From: an uncultured Candidatus Saccharibacteria bacterium
Lineage (GTDB): Bacteria; Patescibacteriota; Minisyncoccia; Phycocordibacterales; Zambryskibacteraceae
Assembly (NCBI GenBank): GCA_964608585.1
Contig: CAZSOL010000002.1
Location: 11 to 64,010, forward strand
Direction: 5' to 3'
DNA length: 64,000 bases
Below are positions 1 to 42,492 of this stretch, in pieces (the stretch's first letter is position 1; each line of letters begins with the position of its first letter). Below the pieces are notes generated by a model that did no database searches, was not told where the DNA came from, and saw only the letters and a program-made list of their open reading frames with translations. Both the position numbers and the translations under genes were made by a program.

Positions 1-908
<908 letters not shown>

Positions 909-15878: not shown

Positions 15879-17810
15879 CTACTTTACAACAATTTCGTCT
15901 CCTTGGACATACTGAGGATCGGTTGAAATCATAGTGGTTACAGCTGGATGACTTACTCTAATAGGGCTGTTGGTAAAGGAGTCAACACCAGTAAGGACAA
16001 TATTGCCAAACAAAACTGGTACTCCTCCAACTTGCCCCAAAGAAGGGATGAGAGACACCCTAAAGCTCATCTCCCTGCTTGATGAGGTGAAGCCAGTGCC
16101 AGATGGCAACTTGTCTAAGTTCCACGTCATAGTACGGGTAGATTCGTTATAAGAAACTCTGGGGTTACTTGGTGGAGAGATGTCTTCGGCCCACTGCACA
16201 TTGGCACCAAGTTGACCGGTAATGACAACATCTTCTATGTCATTCCTTGTATTGGATGTGGTTAGAGTGATGGTGTAGGTGGTCTCTTCTTCGGCTTTTG
16301 GTGGGATACTTCCACGGTTTACAAACGGACCGATAGAATACAAAGACTTAGCGCTAAGAGAGACCTCTGAAGCAATCTTGACCAACCTCGTCTCACTAAC
16401 CTTAAGTGTGCCAGAGGTTCCTTGAGCTCTACCAGTTAGTGATACCGTTAGCTCTATCTCTTGGTTAGACGAGCCTAAAGGCAAGCTCTGAAGAGAGGCG
16501 AACTCAAAGGATACTGTGCTTGTGTCACCAGGAGCTAGAGCTCTTAAGTCCTGAGAGTTTGACTCATCCCAAACTATTGAGTTGGTCGTTGAGTTGTAGA
16601 AGCCGCCTGATCTTGGTCTTACAGAGAGCTTGTCTAAGGGGGCCCCAGTAATCCTTACTTCAAGAACTGGGTTGGACAAACTTTCTAACAAATTGTTCTT
16701 GATGGTGATGGTACCCTGGACTTGCTTCCCCACAGGAGCAACATACTCATCAGAAATCTCGTTGTTGAGTCTTATACTCAAGTCTATAGACGGCCTCTCA
16801 ATGGATACACTCATAACTTGTGAAGCAAGCAATGTATCTATGGACTCATTATCTCCTTCTCCAGAACCGACAAAGAAACGGAAAGTTCTCTCCTCCTCGT
16901 TCTCTCCAATAAGAGAGCCTCTAAGAGAGACAGTCTTCTTGGTCCCAGGAGCCAAGTCTCCAAGAAGCCAAAGTCTCTTATCCTTATCGCTAGATACTGG
17001 GGTGGATGTCCTAAGAGAGAAGCCGTATGGATACTCTGCACGAAGGATGACATTCTTAAGCAACTCAGATGAGTTGGCTACGATTGTTGCTGTGGTTACA
17101 AACTCCTCTCCAGAGCCAACTCTGTCTGGACGAGATAGTGTGACAGTAACAGGAGCGGAACCTATAGTGAGAGATGAGGACTTCTCTTTGGTGAAGGTAG
17201 CATTTGAGCCCTTGACTCTATAATCCACCAAGACCCTTATCTCCTTAATCTCACCCTCCTTACCTAAGAATATGGCTTGGATGTTCTTGGTTATCTTATC
17301 TCCAGGAAGCAGGTCTTCTAGGGCTTCCTCTACATCACCAAGCTCTATGGTTTGGTTGTCTACACTCCTCGTCCCACTTGGATACAAGATGTCCAAGTTG
17401 ACATTATCAAGCGTTGCATTGTTTTTGTTTGTGATAGTGATAGCAAGCTCTACGACACTCCCTGCCGAGATGCTTACAGGACCATCAATGCTTATTTCCA
17501 AATTCTTACTTGAGATGAAGTTGTCTCCGTTGAAGTATATAAGTGAGGCAGCTATAGCGGCACAAATAGCAAATAGTATAGAGACGAAAAAAATTCTCTT
17601 TATAATAGGATGATGTTCTGCGTACTGACGAGGAGAGGCTAGCATTTCGTCTATATCTCCAGACTGCCAATCCGAAGGAACTGGTTTGGACTCCACCTCG
17701 CTTATCGGCTCACGCATATCCTCTGGAGGACGGTACTTCGTCCTAGAGTATAAGCGATCATTCATCCTATCAAGCTGACTCCTAGATCTGTTGTCTCTAT
17801 TGTTGGGCAT
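15879..17810 (-). CDS. hypothetical membrane-anchored protein with large extracellular beta-rich domain
   Basis: Cytoplasmic N-terminus, single TM helix near aa 75-95, long S/T/N-rich repeat-like ectodomain. Confidence 0.5.
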   Translation of the reverse strand: MPNNRDNRSRSQLDRMNDRLYSRTKYRPPEDMREPISEVESKPVPSDWQSGDIDEMLASPRQYAEHHPIIKRIFFVSILFAICAAIAASLIYFNGDNFISSKNLEISIDGPVSISAGSVVELAITITNKNNATLDNVNLDILYPSGTRSVDNQTIELGDVEEALEDLLPGDKITKNIQAIFLGKEGEIKEIRVLVDYRVKGSNATFTKEKSSSLTIGSAPVTVTLSRPDRVGSGEEFVTTATIVANSSELLKNVILRAEYPYGFSLRTSTPVSSDKDKRLWLLGDLAPGTKKTVSLRGSLIGENEEERTFRFFVGSGEGDNESIDTLLASQVMSVSIERPSIDLSIRLNNEISDEYVAPVGKQVQGTITIKNNLLESLSNPVLEVRITGAPLDKLSVRPRSGGFYNSTTNSIVWDESNSQDLRALAPGDTSTVSFEFASLQSLPLGSSNQEIELTVSLTGRAQGTSGTLKVSETRLVKIASEVSLSAKSLYSIGPFVNRGSIPPKAEEETTYTITLTTSNTRNDIEDVVITGQLGANVQWAEDISPPSNPRVSYNESTRTMTWNLDKLPSGTGFTSSSREMSFRVSLIPSLGQVGGVPVLFGNIVLTGVDSFTNSPIRVSHPAVTTMISTDPQYVQGDEIVVK

Positions 17811-17828
17811 AATTTATACAATTATACA

Positions 17829-18392
17829 TTAGTCGAGACCACTAGCTCGTATACCATCGTTTACAAAGACCAAGAACTTCTTCCTGTCTGACCTAACCTC
17901 AAGTATCCCCTTCGGCACAGCTTCCTTAGATAAATAACCCAAGTGTGACAGCAAGCTCGCTACTGTCATAAGCTCCCAGTCTGCCAAACTAGACTCATCA
18001 AAGTCTGGCTTACTCAAAGCCTCCAAAGACTTCTTAAATTCTAGAAAGAGGTCTGTATTTTTGTCCTCGCCTCTTACTAACCGCAAAATAAGACTGGTAA
18101 TCCTGTAGATAGAGAGTAGACTCTCTCTCCTCTCTCTAAGAGTTGGTACTACTTCAATAAGCAAGGAGACAGTGGTCATGCGCCAACTCCTCTTACCTCT
18201 TACCAAAGAGACCTTAACGATGCTTAAATCTCCTAGAGCGGGAGCAGTTCTTGACCCCATCTTCCTCACTCCGCGAGCTGTGGCATAAACAAGACCCAGA
18301 TCTTCTGTAAGTATGGCCAAGGTTTTATCTGCCTCTTTGGAAGAGTGACTCCTTAGCACTATACCTATTGTGGTATAGATGTGGTGAGACAT
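17829..18392 (-). CDS. recO: DNA repair protein RecO (short form)
   Basis: ATARGVRKMGSR and ASLLSHLGY motifs align with RecO; follows ileS with overlapping stop/start. Confidence 0.65.
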   Translation of the reverse strand: MSHHIYTTIGIVLRSHSSKEADKTLAILTEDLGLVYATARGVRKMGSRTAPALGDLSIVKVSLVRGKRSWRMTTVSLLIEVVPTLRERRESLLSIYRITSLILRLVRGEDKNTDLFLEFKKSLEALSKPDFDESSLADWELMTVASLLSHLGYLSKEAVPKGILEVRSDRKKFLVFVNDGIRASGLD

Positions 18393-21300
18393 TAGTCTAT
18401 AAGTAACTTGGTATTGGTAGCCCGCTCAATAGCCTCTCTGTGCTTCTTGTACAGATCCTTGTCTTCCTCTGGAGCAAACTCCATCTGGTCTGTTGGCTTC
18501 AAGTTCTTCTCCTTCCTTGTTTCTTGGATATTGCGGATTATCTCTCGCACCTTCCCCTCTTCTATAAGCTCTGGGGTGAGAGTCGTGTCTAGATAAATCT
18601 CTTGTTCCAAATTTTCCTTTATCTCTACCTCCTTAACGTTCACCTCATCTTTTATAAGTTCCAGATAGCCAGCTTCAAGCTTCTTGCTTTTGGCTTCTAG
18701 TTTTTGGAGTGGTTGGCGAATCTTGATATTGGCTCTGGAACGAGCTTCCAAAGCAAGCGAGACGATGCCCCTCACGTTGTCCATGTCTTCTATAATATCT
18801 TTAGATTTGTTACCAAATAGAGAGAATCTCTTCTTCATCTCTGGCCAAGCTTCAAGATGCACACTCTCTACATCACTCTCAATCCTCAACTTCTGATACA
18901 ACTCCTCTGCGGCAAAAGGGGCAAATGGTGCTAGAAGTTTGGAGAGAGACTTCAATACATAATAAAGAGTCTGCTTCGCTTCCTTGTCTTCTTGCTTTAG
19001 CCTATCTCTAGAACGACGGACATACCAAGTAGAGAGATCCTCTATAAAGTCACGTACATTTCTTACCGGCTCTAAGAGCTTATAATCTTCTATATATTTA
19101 GTATTCTCCTCAATCAAATTTCTCAACTTTTCTAATATCCAGACATCAAGAATGTTCTTTGATTCTGGTTGCTTATTGTTTTCCAAACTCTTGTCTCTAT
19201 ACAAATCATAGAAGGTGTAGACGTTGTCTATAAGGTTAAAGACTCTCTTGTTTATCTCCTCCACACTCTTCTCATCAAAGTTCTTGGGCTCACCAGGTTG
19301 GTTGACCGAGTACATCCAAAGACGCAATACGTCCACACCATACTTCTCTATCGCAGAGAAGGGCTCAACAATGTTGCCTACCGACTTACTCATCTTCTTG
19401 CCCTCCTTATCCATTATGAGCCCTAGACAAATTACATTTTTGTAGGCTAGACCTTTGCCCAAAATAGCTCCAACTGCATGCATGGTGTAGAACCATCCAC
19501 GGGTTTGGTCTAGACCTTCGGAGATAAAGTCTGCTGGGTAGCTGGTGCCAGAGGCTACCGGCACAGCCCCAGAGTCGAGCCATACATCCATCACCTCCTT
19601 GGTACGCTTGTACTCCTTGCCATCCTTAACTAGCACTATGTCATCTATATATGGCTTGTGTAGATCTAGCTGATAATCCGAGTTGTGAGGCAAGGGTACA
19701 AAAGGTAGGTCTCTTACTTCAGCATTCTGAAACCTTTTAAACTCTTTGATAAATATGTGAGTCTTCGGCACATGGTACTCCTTGTGTCTTGGGTCATAGT
19801 AGCCAGACACGACAAAAGAGAGCCATGCAGGTCCGCCATGAGTTACTATCAAAATGTTTTTGCCCTTATACTTCTCCTCAATTTCGTACAAGCACTCTCC
19901 CACTCTTCTGCCCACCTCTCTTAGAGACTCACCACCACCTATAACCTCCTCATACCAATTGGGTCCAACGTTATATACGTGGTTGTGATACTCCTCCCAA
20001 TTCTTACCGTCATAACTTCCTGGATTTATCTCCCGCAATCTCTCGTCAAAAATAATGTCGGACTCATTGAAACCTATTTCTCTCGCAACTATCTGTGCAG
20101 TCTCTTTTGTACGAGCAAAGGGGGATGAAATTATTAAATCTATTTTTTTATCCTCCAGAGTTTTAGCATTCTTCTTAACTTGGGCTCTACCTTCTTCGGT
20201 TAGGTGATCATTGGCTTCGTTCTTATAACTAACAAGATCTTGCTTGTTACACTCTGAGCCACCATGACGCATCACAAAATACTTGTTGCCACTCTTCTTC
20301 GTATACTCTCTTATGGTATCAACCGAATCAATGACCAGTTTCTCCCCATCTTGAGACAGCCATACAGGCAGAGGCGTGCCCCAGTAGCGCTCACGCGATA
20401 TAGCCCAGTCCTTAACCTCTCTTAGCCACTCACCGAAGCGCCCATTCTTGATGTAACTTGGCTCCCAGTTTATCTTCTCGTTCTCCTTCATTAGCTCGCT
20501 ACGGAGCTCCGACATCCTTATATACCAAGAGTCACGTGCATAGTATATGAGACGAGTCTTACACCTCCAGCAGAAGGGATAGGAGTGAGTATAGTTCTCC
20601 TTCTTATACAAAAGTCCTCTGCTCTGGAGATCCTTCAAAACATCTACAGCCAAGCTCTCGTCTGTCACACTTCTACCTTCTAACCAATCAGTACCTTTTA
20701 TAAAAGTCCCATCTGGAGAAACCATGTGTTGCTTGGGCAAACCAATCTTACTACCCAAGTCAAAGTCCTCCTGACCATACATCACAGCAGTGTGCACAAT
20801 ACCTGTGCCATCTTCTGTCGTAACGAAGGGTGCTGTATAAACTCTGAAGGTTTTGTCTGTCGGCTTTATAAAGTTATAAAGTGGCTCATACTCCATACCC
20901 ACCATCTCACTACCTTTGTGCTCGGCGATTATTTCGTACTCTTCTGTAAGAACCGAGAGTCTCTCCTTAGCCAAGACGAGTATCTCCTCACCAACTTTAG
21001 CCTCTACATAAGTTATATCCTCTCCGACAGCCAGAGCTAGGTTGCCAGGGAGAGTCCATGGAGTTGTCGTCCACGCGACGAAGTATGCTTTGTCAAAACC
21101 AACAATCTTGAACTTCGCATAAAGCGACAAATCCTTTACATCTGTATAGCCTTGCGCCAACTCATGAGAGGAGAGCCCTGTACCACACCTTGGGCACCAA
21201 GGTACGACCTTGTAGTCCTTGTACAAGAGCTTCTTCTTATCGGCTTCGGCAACAACGTTCCAAACCGACTCTATATATGAGTTCTTGTATGTGATATATG

Positions 21301-21733
21301 GATCCTTGAGGTCTACCCAGTAACCAATGCGATCGGTGAACCTCTCCCAGATGTCCACATACTTCCACACGCTCTTCTTACACTCTTCGTTAAACTTGGC
21401 TACACCGTACTCCTCTATCTCCTTCTTGCTCTTTAGGCCCAACTGCTTCTCTACCTCAAGCTCTACAGGCAGACCGTGAGTGTCCCAACCCCCCTTCCTC
21501 GGCACCTTGTACCCACGCATCGTCTTATAACGAGGTATGGTGTCCTTGAAAGCTCTAGCCTCTAGGTGGTGTATGCCAGGCTTGCCGTTAGCTGTAGGTG
21601 GCCCCTCGTAGAAGACAAATTCGCCCTTAGGCGAAGGCTTCTCGAGTGACTTCTCGAATATCTTGTTGTCCTTCCAAAATTGTAAGACTTTCTCTTCCCT
21701 TTCCGATCTAGAAAGGCCTTTATCTTCAGCCAT
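18392..21733 (-). CDS. ileS: isoleucyl-tRNA synthetase carrying an inserted histidine-phosphatase (PGAM-like) domain
   Basis: HIGH (PGIHH), CP1 editing domain, WAISRERYWGTPLPVW, KMSKS; insertion of about 200 aa between ...REYTKKSGNKY and DLHKPYIDD containing RHGGSECN and VTHGG motifs. Confidence 0.92.
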   Translation of the reverse strand: MAEDKGLSRSEREEKVLQFWKDNKIFEKSLEKPSPKGEFVFYEGPPTANGKPGIHHLEARAFKDTIPRYKTMRGYKVPRKGGWDTHGLPVELEVEKQLGLKSKKEIEEYGVAKFNEECKKSVWKYVDIWERFTDRIGYWVDLKDPYITYKNSYIESVWNVVAEADKKKLLYKDYKVVPWCPRCGTGLSSHELAQGYTDVKDLSLYAKFKIVGFDKAYFVAWTTTPWTLPGNLALAVGEDITYVEAKVGEEILVLAKERLSVLTEEYEIIAEHKGSEMVGMEYEPLYNFIKPTDKTFRVYTAPFVTTEDGTGIVHTAVMYGQEDFDLGSKIGLPKQHMVSPDGTFIKGTDWLEGRSVTDESLAVDVLKDLQSRGLLYKKENYTHSYPFCWRCKTRLIYYARDSWYIRMSELRSELMKENEKINWEPSYIKNGRFGEWLREVKDWAISRERYWGTPLPVWLSQDGEKLVIDSVDTIREYTKKSGNKYFVMRHGGSECNKQDLVSYKNEANDHLTEEGRAQVKKNAKTLEDKKIDLIISSPFARTKETAQIVAREIGFNESDIIFDERLREINPGSYDGKNWEEYHNHVYNVGPNWYEEVIGGGESLREVGRRVGECLYEIEEKYKGKNILIVTHGGPAWLSFVVSGYYDPRHKEYHVPKTHIFIKEFKRFQNAEVRDLPFVPLPHNSDYQLDLHKPYIDDIVLVKDGKEYKRTKEVMDVWLDSGAVPVASGTSYPADFISEGLDQTRGWFYTMHAVGAILGKGLAYKNVICLGLIMDKEGKKMSKSVGNIVEPFSAIEKYGVDVLRLWMYSVNQPGEPKNFDEKSVEEINKRVFNLIDNVYTFYDLYRDKSLENNKQPESKNILDVWILEKLRNLIEENTKYIEDYKLLEPVRNVRDFIEDLSTWYVRRSRDRLKQEDKEAKQTLYYVLKSLSKLLAPFAPFAAEELYQKLRIESDVESVHLEAWPEMKKRFSLFGNKSKDIIEDMDNVRGIVSLALEARSRANIKIRQPLQKLEAKSKKLEAGYLELIKDEVNVKEVEIKENLEQEIYLDTTLTPELIEEGKVREIIRNIQETRKEKNLKPTDQMEFAPEEDKDLYKKHREAIERATNTKLLID

Positions 21734-21765: not shown

Positions 21766-23349
21766 TTACATCTTCTCTGGAGCAGGAATACCTAAGATGC
21801 TTAGACCATTCCTCATCACAATCTTGAAGGCTTCTACTATAGCCAAACGATACTTGCTCTCCGGGTCATCGCTTATCACTTGCTCTGTAGCGTAGAAGTG
21901 GTTGAAGGAGGAGGAAAGCTCTGTAAGATAAGTTACCAAATGGTGTGGGGCATACTCCTCGCCCACTCTCTCCACCACTTCGGGGAAGCGGTATAAGAGT
22001 CTCTCAACTTCGTGAGTCTCTTTCCTATCTGCCTTCGTATCTCCTTTGCTCCCAGCTTTTTCTATTACAGAGTTGGCGCGAGCGTGTGCGTATTGTAAGT
22101 AGACACCCGAATCTCCATCGGTTGAGACTGACTTCTCGATATCAAAGATGATGTCGTTGCCTATAGACTGGCGGAGGATCATATACTTGATAGCTCCTAT
22201 GGCTACTCTCTCATCATCCTTCACCCTCTCACGTATCTCACTGATAAGAGTGTCGGCAGTTATAACCTCGCCAGTACGAGAGCTCATCTTGCCTGTAGGT
22301 AAGCGGAGCATACCGTGTGGCAGGTGCTTCGTAGCGGAGGCGAGCTCTGGATACATTTGCGCAAGTGCGGTGAGCATCACCTTGAAGTACTCCTTTATCT
22401 CGTTGCCTGTCACTACTACCGACTTTGTGTACTTCCACTTCTTGTACTTGTTGACCGCATTACCAAGATCCTTGGCCTCATAGGTTGGAAGCTTGTGCCT
22501 GTTTATAAAGACTCTAGTGTGGAGCTTGGGGTCAAACATCTCTCCTCTAAAGACTATGGCTCCTTCTGACTCCTCAAAAATCTTCCCCACGTTCTTCTCC
22601 ACAAGCTCCTTACCAAGCTTGCCCGCCTCAGATTCAAAGAAGTAGTAGTCAAACTTGGTCCCCAACCTCTTATATATATCTTCAAAGTACTTGAGACTTG
22701 CCTTCCTACCCTCTTCGTAGACCTTGTTTATCGCCTTGTCGCTTCTATCGAAAATCTTTTTGTTTATCTCTTCTATCTCCTTCCTTGCCTCAAGGTTATC
22801 TACATAGGCCTTTGCTCCCAAGGGGTATGCACTCTTCCAATCACCATGGAAGTAACCCCAGATAGCCATAGCGATGTGCATACCTGTATCTCCTTGGTAG
22901 TTGGCTCTCCTTACATCGGCCCCACTCCACTCTATAGCACGAGAGACAGCCTCGCCTATGGTGTTGCTCATCAGGTGCCCGATGTGGAACTCCTTGAAGG
23001 GGTTCGGGTCTGTATACTCAACCATAACCTTCTCTCCCTTTAGCTTCTTGAGTCTTCCATACTTCTTGTCTTGCTTTATAACCTCCTTAAGAGAGTCGAC
23101 AAAAAACTTTTTGGACAAATAGAAGTTGATGAAGCCGGGACCGACCATCTCTACTCTCTCCACCTCTTCAGGCTTGTTCTTGCTCAAATAATCAAAGATC
23201 TCTTGCTTCCTACTTTGGTTCTTTATACCAACGTTTGTAGAGTAGTCCCCCATCTTGAGGTCTACCGGATGCTCCACGACAAAGCTCGCATCGACGATAC
23301 CAACATCCTCTAAAGCTCGCTTGATTAGATTAAATATAGTTTCTCTCAC
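21766..23349 (-). CDS. argS: arginyl-tRNA synthetase (GTG start)
   Basis: HIGH (FHIGHLMSN), ArgRS catalytic core and DALR-type C-terminus ending ...PEKM. Confidence 0.85.
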   Translation of the reverse strand: MRETIFNLIKRALEDVGIVDASFVVEHPVDLKMGDYSTNVGIKNQSRKQEIFDYLSKNKPEEVERVEMVGPGFINFYLSKKFFVDSLKEVIKQDKKYGRLKKLKGEKVMVEYTDPNPFKEFHIGHLMSNTIGEAVSRAIEWSGADVRRANYQGDTGMHIAMAIWGYFHGDWKSAYPLGAKAYVDNLEARKEIEEINKKIFDRSDKAINKVYEEGRKASLKYFEDIYKRLGTKFDYYFFESEAGKLGKELVEKNVGKIFEESEGAIVFRGEMFDPKLHTRVFINRHKLPTYEAKDLGNAVNKYKKWKYTKSVVVTGNEIKEYFKVMLTALAQMYPELASATKHLPHGMLRLPTGKMSSRTGEVITADTLISEIRERVKDDERVAIGAIKYMILRQSIGNDIIFDIEKSVSTDGDSGVYLQYAHARANSVIEKAGSKGDTKADRKETHEVERLLYRFPEVVERVGEEYAPHHLVTYLTELSSSFNHFYATEQVISDDPESKYRLAIVEAFKIVMRNGLSILGIPAPEKM

Positions 23350-29440: not shown

Positions 29441-29513
29441 GGGTGACTACAGGGAGTCGAACCCTGACAGAGAGCTCCACAAGCTCGCGTGCTACCGCTA
29501 CACCATAGCCACC
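29441..29513 (-). tRNA. tRNA-His (GTG) with encoded G-1
   Basis: Manual cloverleaf: 8-bp acceptor with G-1:C73, anticodon loop TTGTGGA, T-loop TTCGACT. Confidence 0.85.
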
Positions 29514-30462: not shown

Positions 30463-30545
30463 GTGCGCGGGAGAGGATTTGAACCTCCATGCCTCTCGGC
30501 GCTACCACCTCAAGGTAGTGCGTCTACCAATTTCGCCACCCGCGC
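30463..30545 (-). tRNA. tRNA-Leu (GAG), long variable arm
   Basis: Acceptor GCGCGGG/CCCGCGC, anticodon loop TTGAGGT, long variable arm, T-loop TTCAAAT. Confidence 0.88.
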
Positions 30546-31697: not shown

Positions 31698-31770
31698 TGG
31701 GCGATACAGGACTCGAACCTGTGACCTTCTCTGTGTAAAAGAGTTGCTCTACCAACTGAGCTAATCGCCC
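31698..31770 (-). tRNA. tRNA-Val (TAC)
   Basis: Acceptor GGGCGAT/ATCGCCC, anticodon loop TTTACAC, T-loop TTCGAGT. Confidence 0.88.
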
Positions 31771-31853: not shown

Positions 31854-31925
31854 GCCTCCATAGCTCAATGGATAGAGCAGCTCTCTTCTAAGGAGTTGAT
31901 GTGGGTTCGATTCCTGCTGGAGGCA
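31854..31925 (+). tRNA. tRNA-Arg (TCT)
   Basis: Acceptor GCCTCCA/TGGAGGC, D-stem GCTC/GAGC, anticodon loop CTTCTAA. Confidence 0.8.
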
Positions 31926-35247: not shown

Positions 35248-35331
35248 GGAGGAGTGGCAGAGTGGTCTATCGCACTTGTCTTGAAAACAAGAGTCTCGCA
35301 AGGGACCGTGAGTTCGAATCTCACCTCCTCC
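35248..35331 (+). tRNA. tRNA-Ser (TGA)
   Basis: Acceptor GGAGGAG/CTCCTCC, anticodon loop CTTGAAA, long variable arm, T-loop TTCGAAT. Confidence 0.88.
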
Positions 35332-35359
35332 GCTAATTTTTGTGTGATAAAATTATTTC

Positions 35360-35850: not shown

Positions 35851-35925
35851 GCTCCCATCGTTCAATGGATAGGACATGACTTTGCGGAAGTTAAAATGTA
35901 GGTTCGATTCCTACTGGGAGCACCA
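35851..35925 (+). tRNA. tRNA-Arg with genomically encoded GCG anticodon; CCA encoded
   Basis: Acceptor GCTCCCA/TGGGAGC, D-stem GTTC/GGAC, anticodon stem TGACT/AGTTA with loop TTGCGGA, T-loop TTCGATT, 3' ACCA. Confidence 0.8.
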
Positions 35926-42421: not shown

Positions 42422-42492
42422 TGCTCCCACATGGAATCGAACCATGATCAATTGCTTAAAAGGCAACTGCTCTACCACTGAGCTATGGGAGC
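42422..42492 (-). tRNA. tRNA-Lys (TTT)
   Basis: Acceptor GCTCCCA/TGGGAGC, anticodon loop CTTTTAA, T-loop TTCGATT. Confidence 0.85.

What the first reader, a model, noticed from the sequence alone, without database searches (positions are those of the whole stretch)
19664..20281. Isoleucyl-tRNA synthetase with an embedded complete histidine-phosphatase (PGAM/SixA-like) domain
The ileS product (1113 aa) is unusually long. Between the conserved WAISRERYWGTPLPVW segment and the DLHKPYIDD / DVWLDSG segment, where IleRS normally has about 60 aa, there is an insertion of about 200 aa. The insertion begins YFVMRHGGSECN (the RHG catalytic motif of branch-1 histidine phosphatases), contains a LIISSPFARTKETAQI middle motif and ends VTHGGPAWLSF (second catalytic His). 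The reading frame is continuous, so this is an in-frame domain insertion, not a neighbouring gene. A phosphatase or mutase domain inside the catalytic body of an aaRS is not a described IleRS architecture to my knowledge. It could be a moonlighting activity, a regulatory module, or a domesticated insertion.
Basis: partly seen in the sequence, partly recalled or inferred. Interest (0 to 1): 0.82.

Follow-up and report, generated by a model that had tools for sequence, protein, structure and literature searches.

The report
IleRS with a built-in histidine phosphatase
The isoleucyl-tRNA synthetase of this Patescibacteria (CPR) genome carries a complete histidine phosphatase with all its catalytic residues inside one of its surface loops; the same phosphatase is a separate gene directly upstream of ileS in sister lineages, so the two enzymes form an old, undescribed pair whose joint purpose is unknown.

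Summary
Window 18392-21733 (-) is one uninterrupted 1113-aa ileS gene. About 200 aa (aa 484-681, window 19691-20284) form a complete branch-1 histidine phosphatase (Pfam His_Phos_1, E = 8.7e-34). It is nested in the variable CP3 subdomain of a type-2 IleRS.

The architecture is lineage-wide, not a one-off:
- All 120 best full-length homologues carry the domain.
- At least 394 GTDB species genomes encode it (mostly Paceibacteria/Parcubacteria).
- The catalytic set R489-H490, R541, E568 and H632 is essentially invariant, even where the IleRS body is only about 40% identical.

New findings:
- In sister lineages with a normal-length IleRS, the closest free-standing phosphatase is encoded immediately upstream of ileS. 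The order is argS-HP-ileS-recO, the window's own synteny. This held in 6 of 6 look-ups and in 54 of 69 metagenome loci that extend at least 600 nt downstream.
- Other CPR IleRSs carry 2 to at least 4 phosphatase domains with the full catalytic set, at three or more different insertion sites.

The nearest structures are small-metabolite phosphatases (PspA, PhoE, CobC), not mutases or SixA. The substrate, and any functional coupling to aminoacylation, remain unproven. CPR proteins fuse promiscuously, which weakens the coupling argument. I found no paper describing the architecture.

The parts
18392..21733 (-). ileS: 1113-aa type-2 isoleucyl-tRNA synthetase carrying a nested histidine-phosphatase domain
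   Evidence: It is a single ORF. TIGR00392 ileS scores 852 bits against a cutoff of 621. Pfam finds tRNA-synt_1, His_Phos_1, Anticodon_1 and DUF5915. The AF2 model has pLDDT 89 and matches IleRS2 8c8w/8c8v at TMt 0.77 and 1ile at TMt 0.89.
19691..20284 (-). Nested branch-1 histidine-phosphatase (HP) domain, aa 484-681. The Pfam core is aa 486-639, window 19817-20278.
   Evidence: PF00300 E = 8.7e-34. The domain-only AF2 model has pLDDT 87.5, and its best Foldseek matches in the PDB are PspA 4ij5/4ij6, 9mmh, Rv2419c, PhoE 1h2e and CobC 6nru.
20264..20269 (-). R489-H490 of the RHG motif. H490 is the predicted phospho-accepting nucleophile.
   Evidence: Both are invariant in 120/120 close homologues and 34/34 distant ones. 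They are present in every aligned HP copy at every insertion site.
20111..20113 (-). R541, the second phosphate-binding arginine (SPFxRTxET motif)
   Evidence: 120/120, 34/34 and 356/357
20030..20032 (-). E568, the predicted general acid (proton donor)
   Evidence: E in 119/120. In the 34 distant sequences it is 32 E and 2 D.
19838..19840 (-). H632, the second catalytic histidine (VTHGG motif)
   Evidence: 120/120 and 34/34
20285..20377 (-). N-terminal half of the CP3 subdomain (aa 453-483), ending in the conserved junction SGN|K-Y
   Evidence: The model shows strands 457-459 and 465-467 and helix 471-477 before the HP domain. N483 is invariant. The CP3 definition comes from PMC7191050 and PMC7955072.
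19589..19690 (-). C-terminal half of CP3 (aa 682-715): conserved junction PLPHN..LDLHKPYID and a beta-hairpin leading into DVWLDSG
   Evidence: P682, H692, P694 and D697 are invariant. The model shows strands 700-703 and 706-710.
21566..21577 (-). [quoted passage not shown]
   Evidence: Sequence. G/AXHH is found in most of the 111 aligned homologues: GIHH 70, AIHH 15. The motif is described for IleRS2 in PMC10485003.
19382..19396 (-). KMSKS loop (aa 780-784)
   Evidence: Sequence; invariant in alignment A1
21766..23349 (-). argS, immediately upstream. This is the same synteny block as in genomes where the phosphatase is a separate gene between argS and ileS.
   Evidence: Pfam finds Arg_tRNA_synt_N, tRNA-synt_1d and DALR_1. 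The order argS-HP-ileS is seen in L083-L093.
17829..18392 (-). recO-like gene, immediately downstream; part of the conserved block
   Evidence: Pfam finds RecO_N and RecO_C. recO lies downstream of ileS in the related loci.

Best explanation
**What it is**
This is a bifunctional enzyme. The body is a working type-2 IleRS with the GIHH and KMSKS motifs, an intact editing domain, and the anticodon-binding and C-terminal domains. Nested in its variable CP3 subdomain is a complete branch-1 histidine phosphatase with every catalytic residue kept.

**Phosphatase chemistry (inferred from the family)**
- R489, R541, R610 and H632 hold the phosphate.
- H490 attacks a phosphomonoester and becomes phosphorylated.
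- E568 protonates the leaving group.
- Water then releases phosphate.

The fold and nearest relatives point to a small-metabolite phosphatase of the PspA/PhoE/CobC kind, not a mutase or a protein phosphatase.

**Origin**
The domain is the counterpart of a roughly 190-aa phosphatase gene that sits between argS and ileS in sister CPR lineages. In this lineage the gene has moved into ileS.

**Coupling to IleRS**
I favour the view that the link is selected and that the phosphatase works together with IleRS. CP3 starts directly after the CP2-3 linker, and that linker lines the pocket for the tRNA 3' end. The phosphatase may therefore sit near the entrance of the synthetic site. There it could remove a phosphorylated compound that interferes with isoleucine activation or transfer, or remove a reaction product.

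**Shown versus inferred**
- Shown: the architecture, residue conservation, gene linkage, and the multiple insertion sites and copies.
- Inferred: phosphatase activity, coupling to IleRS, and the position relative to the active site.
- Unknown: the substrate. Each specific candidate (AMP or PPi removal, a phosphorylated inhibitor, a tRNA 3'-phosphate, phospho-IleRS) has a probability of 0.2 or less.
For: **Domain identity and intactness**
PF00300 matches at E = 8.7e-34. The catalytic residues are invariant in 120 close homologues and 34 distant ones, whose IleRS bodies are 23-61% identical (mostly 38-61%) to the window protein. The fold is modelled confidently, and both junctions have high pLDDT and conserved junction residues (N483, P682, H692, P694, D697), which suggests a fixed orientation.

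**IleRS intactness**
TIGR00392 scores above its cutoff. GIHH, KMSKS, TTTPWT and GTGIVH are all present.

**Breadth**
All 120 best homologues carry PF00300. At least 394 GTDB species genomes were confirmed.

**Gene linkage**
Six of six closest free-standing phosphatases lie directly upstream of an insert-less ileS, in the order argS-HP-ileS-recO. Of 69 metagenome loci that extend at least 600 nt downstream, 54 are directly adjacent, 3 lie within about 1 kb and 8 are nested. Two of the 4 loci without ileS were examined, and both have defence or toxin genes inserted after HP. All 80 GTDB loci with a nested domain lack a second HP gene nearby. The free gene accompanies two diverged IleRS subtypes.

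**Repeated nesting**
HP domains occur in CP3, after the DxWFESG motif, and about 80 aa after KMSKS. IleRSs with 2 to at least 4 copies exist, and every aligned copy keeps R-H-R-E-H.

**Substrate class**
The Foldseek top hits are metabolite phosphatases.
Against: No activity has been measured. I could not obtain model coordinates, so the distance and orientation between H490 and the IleRS active site are unknown.

The synteny block also contains recO, which is unrelated to aminoacylation, so adjacency alone does not prove a shared function.

CPR proteins fuse promiscuously. The TsaC/YrdC domain is fused in CPR to MGMT, TruB, CPDase, NUDIX, GNAT and glycosylase domains, so a fusion need not mean coupling.

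The domain satisfies no characterised equivalog model, so the substrate is open. About 9 of the 120 close homologues lack roughly 30 aa of the cap region that usually shapes substrate specificity.
Confidence: 0.55

Rival explanations
1. Hitch-hiking fusion without functional coupling. The phosphatase is an ordinary housekeeping metabolite phosphatase that happened to lie next to ileS in an ancestral operon. Because the genes were adjacent and CP3 tolerates insertions, it became nested. Both activities are kept but work independently. The only benefit is co-expression or genome streamlining.
For: The conserved block includes the unrelated recO. CPR TsaC is fused to many unrelated domains. IleRSs in CPR also carry GNAT, HD and Y1_Tnp-like segments. 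The nearest relatives are generic metabolite phosphatases. CP3 is known to vary in topology between IleRSs (PMC7191050). The insert evolves faster than the IleRS body: 75% against 87% identity to P0122, and about 35% against about 42% in distant homologues.
Against: The same domain family is nested at three or more different sites of the same protein, in up to at least 4 copies that all keep the catalytic residues. Linkage to ileS is nearly universal across two IleRS subtypes. The nested and adjacent forms are mutually exclusive. The junction residues are strongly conserved.
Confidence: 0.35
2. The domain is a glycolytic cofactor-dependent phosphoglycerate mutase (or another specific known enzyme such as CobC or phosphoserine phosphatase) that moonlights from inside IleRS.
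For: The superfamily includes dPGM, CobC and PspA. The best sequence and fold matches include PspA (4ij5), CobC (6nru) and a short archaeal dPGM model.
Against: All equivalog models score far below their cutoffs:
- dPGM_arch: 79 against 225
- GpmB: 56 against 261
- PRK01295 dPGM: 39 against 316
- CobC TIGR03162: 88 against 163
- PspA: 70 against 350

dPGM structures rank lower and with large rmsd.
Confidence: 0.05
3. The domain is a catalytically dead structural or regulatory module, for example an extra tRNA-binding surface or a phospho-ligand sensor, that only looks like a phosphatase.
For: aaRS insertions often act as RNA-binding or regulatory modules (general knowledge). Some homologues have lost about 30 aa of the cap.
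Against: R489, H490, R541, E568 and H632 are invariant or nearly so across hundreds of sequences and all insertion sites. Surrounding positions vary freely.
Confidence: 0.04
4. It is an artefact or a mobile element: an assembly chimera, a frameshifted neighbouring gene, or an intein-like selfish insertion.
For: Some database entries look like split genes, with short IleRS/HP fragments on long contigs.
Against: Those fragments come from frameshift-ridden assemblies. The window ORF is continuous. Identical and near-identical full-length proteins occur in independent assemblies, and hundreds of species share the architecture. There is no compositional anomaly. Pfam reports only aaRS domains and His_Phos_1 for the protein, and no intein family.
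Confidence: 0.01

Closest known systems
Type-2 (eukaryote-like) bacterial IleRS with the non-canonical G/AXHH signature, e.g. Priestia megaterium IleRS2 (PDB 8c8u/8c8v/8c8w) and Thermus thermophilus IleRS (1ILE)
   Same: The IleRS body is the same: TIGR00392 membership, CP1 editing domain, KMSKS, anticodon-binding domain and DUF5915 C-terminal domains. GIHH replaces HIGH, as in the G/AXHH clade described in PMC10485003. The structure model superposes on these entries (TMt 0.77-0.89).
   Different: Those enzymes have a short CP3 loop (14 residues in 8c8w) where the window protein has about 216 residues that contain a whole phosphatase. No solved IleRS contains such a domain.
Small branch-1 histidine phosphatases acting on metabolites: PspA-type phosphoserine phosphatase (4ij5), PhoE (1h2e), CobC alpha-ribazole phosphatase (6nru), GpgP Rv2419c (4qih), and the riboflavin-pathway HFP (9mmh)
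   Same: They share the fold (TM 0.63-0.73), a size of about 200 aa, and the RHG...R...E...H catalytic set.
   Different: Those are free-standing enzymes with defined substrates. The window domain reaches none of their equivalog cutoffs and is nested inside, or encoded next to, an aaRS.
NCBIfam NF040702 'ileS_w_GNAT': isoleucine-tRNA ligase containing an N-acetyltransferase domain
   Same: It is another IleRS that carries an additional enzymatic domain. A CPR IleRS with both HP and GNAT exists (P0325).
   Different: The extra domain is different (GNAT, not a phosphatase). The window protein scores 323 bits against a cutoff of 1999, so it is not a member.
PRK07238 bifunctional RNase H / acid phosphatase (the mycobacterial Rv2228c type; the organism name is from my own knowledge)
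   Same: A CobC-like histidine phosphatase is covalently joined to an enzyme of nucleic-acid metabolism. It is the best NCBIfam hit for the HP part (91 bits). To my knowledge the functional link between its two halves is likewise unexplained.
   Different: That is an end-to-end fusion, not a nested insertion, and the partner enzyme is different. The score is far below the cutoff of 326.
The free-standing HP gene of the argS-HP-ileS operon in sister Patescibacteria (e.g. P0071 from a Staskawiczbacteria MAG, P0091)
   Same: It is the closest non-fused relative (35-39% identity) with the same catalytic residues, in the same synteny block as the window.
   Different: It is a separate 188-199-aa protein. 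It carries a conserved SCWPEK motif that the nested form lacks.

Membership tests
Isoleucyl-tRNA synthetase (class Ia, type 2) | Scores above the curated cutoff of the ileS equivalog model TIGR00392 | tested here: met
   852.2 bits against a cutoff of 621.4, matched in two stretches around the insert
Isoleucyl-tRNA synthetase (class Ia, type 2) | Class-I signature motifs (HIGH or its IleRS2 variant G/AXHH, and KMSKS) | tested here: met
   GIHH at aa 53-56 and KMSKS at aa 780-784. G/AXHH is accepted as a functional IleRS2 variant in PMC10485003.
Isoleucyl-tRNA synthetase (class Ia, type 2) | CP1 editing domain with the Thr-rich and GTG(I/V)VH motifs | tested here: met
   TTTPWT at aa 222-227 and GTGIVH at aa 309-314. 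W221, T222-T224, P225, W226, T227, G309, G311, V313 and H314 are invariant in 111 homologues. The region matches editing-domain structures 1wk8 and 1udz.
Isoleucyl-tRNA synthetase (class Ia, type 2) | Anticodon-binding domain plus the type-2 C-terminal domains | tested here: met
   Anticodon_1 at aa 863-1011 and DUF5915 at aa 1046-1108
Isoleucyl-tRNA synthetase (class Ia, type 2) | Charges tRNA-Ile with isoleucine | not testable with these tools
   Requires an enzyme assay
Histidine phosphatase superfamily, branch 1 (PF00300) | Scores above the Pfam gathering threshold | tested here: met
   117.3 bits against 21.7, E = 8.7e-34, aa 486-639
Histidine phosphatase superfamily, branch 1 (PF00300) | RHG motif with the nucleophilic histidine, plus the second Arg, second His and an acidic proton donor | tested here: met
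   R489-H490-G491, R541, H632 and E568 are present and are invariant or nearly invariant in 120 close homologues, 34 distant ones and 357 domain copies.
Histidine phosphatase superfamily, branch 1 (PF00300) | The alpha/beta fold of the superfamily, complete to the C-terminal strand | tested here: met
   The AF2 domain model has pLDDT 87.5. Foldseek matches PspA, PhoE and CobC with probability 1.0 and TM 0.63-0.73. The final strand is modelled at aa 673-676.
Histidine phosphatase superfamily, branch 1 (PF00300) | Phosphatase or mutase activity through a phospho-histidine intermediate | not testable with these tools
   Requires an assay of wild type against H490A
Cofactor-dependent phosphoglycerate mutase (dPGM) | Scores above the cutoff of a dPGM equivalog model | tested here: not met
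   NF038349: 79.1 against 225. PRK03482 GpmB: 55.8 against 261. PRK01295: 38.9 against 316. dPGM structures rank low and with rmsd of about 7-8 A.
CobC alpha-ribazole phosphatase / PspA phosphoserine phosphatase | Scores above the equivalog cutoff | tested here: not met
   TIGR03162: 87.9 against 162.9. NF045917 PspA: 69.8 against 350. PRK13463: 57.1 against 277.
SixA-type phosphohistidine protein phosphatase | Closest sequence or fold similarity to SixA | tested here: inconclusive
   No SixA model appears among the 25 NCBIfam families shown (31 matched) and no SixA structure is in the Foldseek top 50. I made no direct comparison with SixA.
IleRS with GNAT domain (NF040702) | Scores above the cutoff of 1999 bits | tested here: not met
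   322.7 bits, from the IleRS parts only
Anti-phage defence proteins (PADLOC) | Matches any PADLOC model | tested here: not met
   No hit for the nested domain or for the free-standing P0071 at E <= 0.01

The most novel reading that the evidence does not exclude
The histidine phosphatase is a dedicated accessory activity of IleRS that has been conserved across a large part of the Patescibacteria. It is either a separate operon partner or nested in 1 to at least 4 copies at several sites around the catalytic core. It acts directly on something in the aminoacylation cycle. Possible targets are a phosphorylated inhibitor or metabolite that competes at the synthetic site, a reaction product, a 3'-phosphorylated tRNA end, or phosphorylated IleRS itself. 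This would be a new kind of quality-control, protection or regulatory module in an aminoacyl-tRNA synthetase, comparable in principle to the editing domain.
Probability: 0.3. Interest if true: 0.88.

Novelty: new variant of a known kind. Interest (0 to 1): 0.7.

Why it matters
Bacterial aminoacyl-tRNA synthetases are among the best-studied enzymes. To my knowledge their only well-established extra catalytic modules are editing domains.

Here a second, unrelated domain that keeps the full catalytic residue set has been kept with IleRS through deep divergence in one of the largest bacterial radiations. It appears either as the upstream gene or nested in the synthetase. In some lineages it is nested at several sites or in several copies.

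If the phosphatase serves aminoacylation, that would reveal an unknown step or vulnerability of isoleucine charging in these ultra-small, host-dependent bacteria. If it does not, the case is a clean natural example of how an adjacent gene becomes a nested domain in an essential enzyme without harming either fold.

Either outcome can be tested with recombinant protein. The case also supplies a well-defined permissive insertion site (CP3) for engineering class Ia synthetases.

Tried and rejected
1. **Apparent split genes.** Short IleRS/HP 'partial' proteins on long contigs looked like naturally split ileS genes. Two look-ups showed frameshift-fragmented assemblies instead, so I dropped this idea.

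2. **Failed first genome scan.** The first scan used a 28-sequence alignment and failed because no stretch was conserved enough. I repeated it with 7 closer sequences.

3. **TsaC/YrdC-HP fusion as a clue.** I considered the P0051 fusion as a second Rosetta stone pointing to a shared adenylate or PPi chemistry. The fusion exists in only 4 clusters. CPR TsaC is fused to many unrelated domains, so it carries little weight and in fact warns that CPR fusions are promiscuous.

4. **Recent intragenic duplication.** I tested whether HP copies at different sites arose this way. The copies are only about 33-45% identical to each other and to everything else, so the order of events cannot be resolved by identity alone.

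5. **Geometry.** I wanted the distance and orientation of H490 relative to the synthetic site and the KMSKS loop. Model coordinates are not exposed to the scripting tool, so this remains undone.

6. **PADLOC.** The search for a defence-system connection found nothing.

7. **Literature.** Six searches, plus text searches inside the Minisyncoccota review and the 2026 IleRS evolution preprint, found no description of the architecture.

8. **Mutase reading.** Rejected on equivalog scores.
Full report
**1.

Window 18392-21733 on the minus strand is one uninterrupted 1113-aa ORF. Pfam finds a class-I synthetase catalytic domain split in two, with His_Phos_1 (PF00300) at aa 486-639 between the halves (E = 8.7e-34, 117 bits against a gathering score of 21.7). 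Anticodon_1 and DUF5915 follow. NCBIfam identifies the protein as ileS (TIGR00392, 852 bits against a cutoff of 621).

The closest solved enzyme is Priestia megaterium IleRS2 (8c8w). Its alignment breaks at query residue 465 and resumes at 682, while only 14 residues pass in the crystal sequence. The net insertion is therefore about 200 aa.

GC content across the insert is unremarkable. An identical protein (P0121) and an 87%-identical one occur in other public assemblies. Neither an artefact nor chance can explain this.

**2. Where the insertion sits**

The segment between the WxxSRxRYWG 'CP2-3 linker' and the DxWFDSG strand is the CP3 subdomain of IleRS. Its topology already differs between the Candida, Thermus and Staphylococcus enzymes (PMC7191050). 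In yeast IleRS the linker just before it forms part of the pocket that receives the tRNA 3' end (PMC7955072).

In the AlphaFold model of the whole protein (pLDDT 89, pTM 0.79), CP3 is laid out as follows:
- two short strands and a helix (aa 457-477);
- then the phosphatase (aa 484-676 in secondary structure, block pLDDT mostly 93-98);
- then a beta-hairpin (aa 700-710) leading into DVWLDSG.

The native CP3 elements are therefore retained, and the phosphatase is nested in a loop of CP3. The junction residues are conserved: N483, P682, H692, P694 and D697 are invariant in 111-120 homologues. This argues for a fixed rather than floppy attachment, although that is an inference. The IleRS body of the model superposes on IleRS2 structures (TMt 0.77 for 8c8w and 8c8v, 0.89 for 1ile). 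No solved IleRS has anything at this position.

**3. Both enzymes look intact**

The IleRS part has:
- KMSKS at aa 780-784;
- the editing-site motifs TTTPWT and GTGIVH;
- GIHH in place of HIGH.

G/AXHH is a recognised functional variant of the signature motif in type-2 IleRS and is linked to mupirocin hyper-resistance (PMC10485003). Most close homologues share it.

The phosphatase part has the complete catalytic set of the superfamily: R489-H490-G491, N496, R541, E568, R610 and H632. Conservation is as follows:
- In the 120 best full-length homologues (58-100% identical overall), R489, H490, N496, R541, R610 and H632 are 120/120 and E568 is 119/120.
- In 33 representatives of 50%-identity clusters, whose IleRS bodies are 23-61% identical (mostly 38-61%) to the window protein, R489, H490, R541 and H632 are 34/34 (query included) and E568 is 32 E plus 2 D.

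The insert evolves somewhat faster than the synthetase body, yet these positions do not move. That is the signature of selection for catalysis.

**4. What kind of phosphatase**

No characterised equivalog model is satisfied. CobC, PspA, GpmB, two dPGM models and the RNase H/acid phosphatase model all score far below their cutoffs.

A model of the domain alone (pLDDT 87.5) matches small-metabolite phosphatases best:
- PspA-type phosphoserine phosphatase (4ij5, 4ij6)
- a riboflavin-pathway histidine-family phosphatase (9mmh)
- mycobacterial hydrolases and GpgP
- PhoE
- CobC
- TIGAR

True mutases rank lower with large rmsd, and no SixA appears in the top 50. The domain is best described as a generic PhoE/PspA/CobC-like phosphomonoesterase of unknown substrate.

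**5. The architecture is lineage-wide**

- All 120 best hits to the full protein carry PF00300. The source names include Nomurabacteria, Zambryskibacteria, Minisyncoccia, Paceibacterota and Parcubacteria.
- A search of 1.84 billion cluster representatives with the insert alone returns mostly proteins of 1130-1200 aa with the domain at about residues 490-720.
- A scan of one genome per GTDB species used the junction pattern LD[LFI]H[RK]P[YF]ID. Of those, 394 were confirmed, and 78 of the best 80 match from residue 1-3 of the 237-residue query to residue 233 or beyond (the other two start at residues 5 and 18).
- Each of those 80 loci has exactly one phosphatase-bearing ORF, and it is the long ileS frame.

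**6. New: the phosphatase is the upstream neighbour of ileS where it is not nested**

The closest free-standing relatives (188-199 aa, 35-39% identical to the window domain in alignment A5) were looked up on their contigs. In 6 of 6 cases the gene lies directly upstream of a normal-length ileS (938-966 aa, no PF00300), on the same strand, 1-58 nt apart. Where the upstream sequence is held, the order is argS-HP-ileS-(small ORF)-recO. The window has the same block with the phosphatase inside ileS: argS at 21766-23349, ileS at 18392-21733 and recO at 17829-18392. There is no other phosphatase of this family in the 64 kb.

I then scanned metagenome contigs with an alignment of free-standing phosphatases and classified 80 loci. 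Sixty-nine extended at least 600 nt downstream (with small ORF overlaps corrected by hand):

| State | Loci |
|---|---|
| Directly upstream of ileS | 54 |
| Separated from ileS by 0.6-1 kb | 3 |
| Nested in ileS | 8 |
| No ileS in the sequence held | 4 |

Two of the last four were examined. Both have defence or toxin genes inserted just after the phosphatase: EcoRI-type methylase, AbiU2, GmrSD/HNH and NYN in one, and YafQ/ParE in the other.

The free gene accompanies two diverged IleRS subtypes, one with HYGH/KMSKK and one with GIHH/KMSKS. Both are bona fide ileS by TIGR00392.

**7. New: several insertion sites and copy numbers**

Other CPR IleRSs carry the same domain family elsewhere in the protein.

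| Site | Position | Examples |
|---|---|---|
| A | CP3, the window's site | window protein; P0304 (first copy); P0370 (two copies) |
| B | Directly after DxWFESG...MPYAS, about window aa 728-732 | P0304, P0306, P0369 |
| C | About 80 aa after KMSKS, in the loop before the anticodon-binding domain, about window aa 847-858 | P0306, P0357, P0369, P0352; an RHG motif about 80 aa after KMSKS at the truncated end of P0304 |

- P0370 comes from a Peribacteria MAG and has two copies inside CP3.
- P0265 has at least four copies in tandem.
- The P0306 type has six cluster members on contigs of up to 1.06 Mb.
- Every aligned copy keeps R-H-R-E-H; N496 and R610 each vary in one copy.
- The copies are only about 33-45% identical to one another, so they are old.

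**8. Interpretation**

What is shown:
- a nested phosphatase with a complete, conserved catalytic set in an apparently functional IleRS;
- an ancient and nearly universal genomic link between this phosphatase family and ileS in a large part of the Patescibacteria;
- repeated nesting at several sites.

What is inferred is that the two activities are functionally coupled. Three observations favour coupling:
- nesting at several sites and in several copies in this one protein;
- mutual exclusivity of the adjacent and nested forms;
- conserved junctions.

Three observations count against over-reading it:
- The same block contains recO.
- CPR proteins fuse freely. TsaC/YrdC is joined in CPR to MGMT, TruB, CPDase, NUDIX, GNAT and glycosylase domains.
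- Adjacency itself makes recombination into a tolerant loop more likely.

I put coupling at roughly 0.55 and a neutral hitch-hiking fusion at 0.35. The substrate is unknown. The fold argues for a small phosphomonoester rather than a protein. Specific ideas are product removal (AMP or PPi), destruction of a phosphorylated competitor at the synthetic site, tRNA 3'-end healing, and dephosphorylation of IleRS. Each is speculative, at a probability of 0.2 or less.

**9. Novelty**

Both domains are textbook families, and the combination is machine-annotated in public databases. I found no paper describing it. I ran six literature searches and searched the text of two further papers: a 2026 review of the phylum (Minisyncoccota) and a 2026 preprint devoted to IleRS domain evolution, which mentions neither a phosphatase nor CPR. 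I classify it as a new variant of a known kind: an aaRS with an additional nested catalytic domain. It has the unusual added features of an operon-partner form and multi-site, multi-copy variants.

Noticed in passing
window 21566-21577 (-), aa 53-56: The IleRS has GIHH instead of the class-I HIGH signature. This is the G/AXHH variant that PMC10485003 links to mupirocin hyper-resistance in type-2 IleRS. Most close homologues share it (GIHH 70, AIHH 15 of 111), whereas one sister IleRS subtype next to a free-standing phosphatase has canonical HYGH.
   Followed up: partly
P0306, P0369, P0357, P0352, P0304, P0370, P0265 (related proteins, not in the window): These CPR IleRSs carry 2 to at least 4 histidine-phosphatase domains at three or more different insertion sites: CP3, after DxWFESG, and about 80 aa after KMSKS. 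All aligned copies keep the catalytic residues. P0370 is annotated as Candidatus Peribacteria.
   Followed up: partly
P0325 (1066 aa, JGI): This IleRS combines an IS200-like Y1_Tnp segment inside the editing-domain region (aa 340-461), a CP3 phosphatase (aa 680-854) and a GNAT domain after DCWFESG (aa 935-1063). I did not check whether it is a real protein or an assembly or annotation chimera.
   Followed up: no
P0220 (1334 aa, JGI): This close homologue (60% identity) has the CP3 phosphatase plus an HD phosphohydrolase domain at the extreme C-terminus (aa 1140-1258). It may be a read-through fusion with a downstream gene.
   Followed up: no
P0051, P0384-P0386; L175: A small clade has a TsaC/YrdC (threonylcarbamoyl-AMP synthase) protein fused to a phosphatase of the same family. 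More generally, CPR TsaC is fused to a wide range of unrelated domains: MGMT PF01035 most often, then TruB, CPDase/2'-5' ligase, NUDIX, GNAT and a DNA glycosylase.
   Followed up: partly
P0128, P0162, P0174, P0198, P0203, P0213, P0232, P0234, P0238 (close homologues, 1061-1085 aa): About 9 of the 120 close homologues lack roughly 30 aa of the phosphatase 'cap' region (profile positions about 90-120, window aa about 573-603). They keep the catalytic residues. This may mean altered or relaxed substrate specificity.
   Followed up: no
Alignment A4 columns about 25-30 (free-standing HPs), compared with window aa 502-507: Free-standing phosphatases share a nearly invariant SCWPEK motif shortly after the RHG...N segment. 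The nested forms have variable residues there (S-Y-K-N-E-A in the window). It could be a docking surface that became dispensable after covalent fusion, or part of the pocket rim.
   Followed up: no
L117 5621-10419; L110 5902-7141: In two metagenome loci the position between the phosphatase gene and where ileS is expected is occupied by defence or toxin genes: EcoRI-type methylase, AbiU2 HEPN, GmrSD/HNH and NYN in one, and a YafQ/ParE-like toxin in the other. The site appears to be an insertion hotspot.
   Followed up: partly
L001, L002: ileS is broken into several ORFs on otherwise long contigs, and L002 also has an inverted partial duplicate. These look like error-prone long-read assemblies, not real split genes. 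Such fragments inflate the number of 'partial' IleRS/phosphatase proteins in databases.
   Followed up: partly
window 1-901 (-); tRNAs at 29442-29512, 30464-30545, 31698-31770, 31854-31925, 35248-35332, 35851-35922, 42422-42492: The window starts inside a bacterial 23S rRNA gene (the 5' 859 model positions) and contains seven tRNA genes. I did not examine them further.
   Followed up: no
window 15879-17810 (-): This 643-aa protein downstream of recO has weak DUF11/CLIPPER-like repeats. The same kind of gene (CLIPPER/DUF7619 hits) follows recO in the related loci, so the conserved block extends at least this far.
   Followed up: no
L003-L082 record titles: Many GTDB representative MAGs carrying the nested phosphatase are titled 'uncultured Candidatus Saccharibacteria bacterium'. 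Their IleRS and synteny are of the Paceibacteria type, so the label looks like a generic submitter name rather than a taxonomic placement.
   Followed up: no
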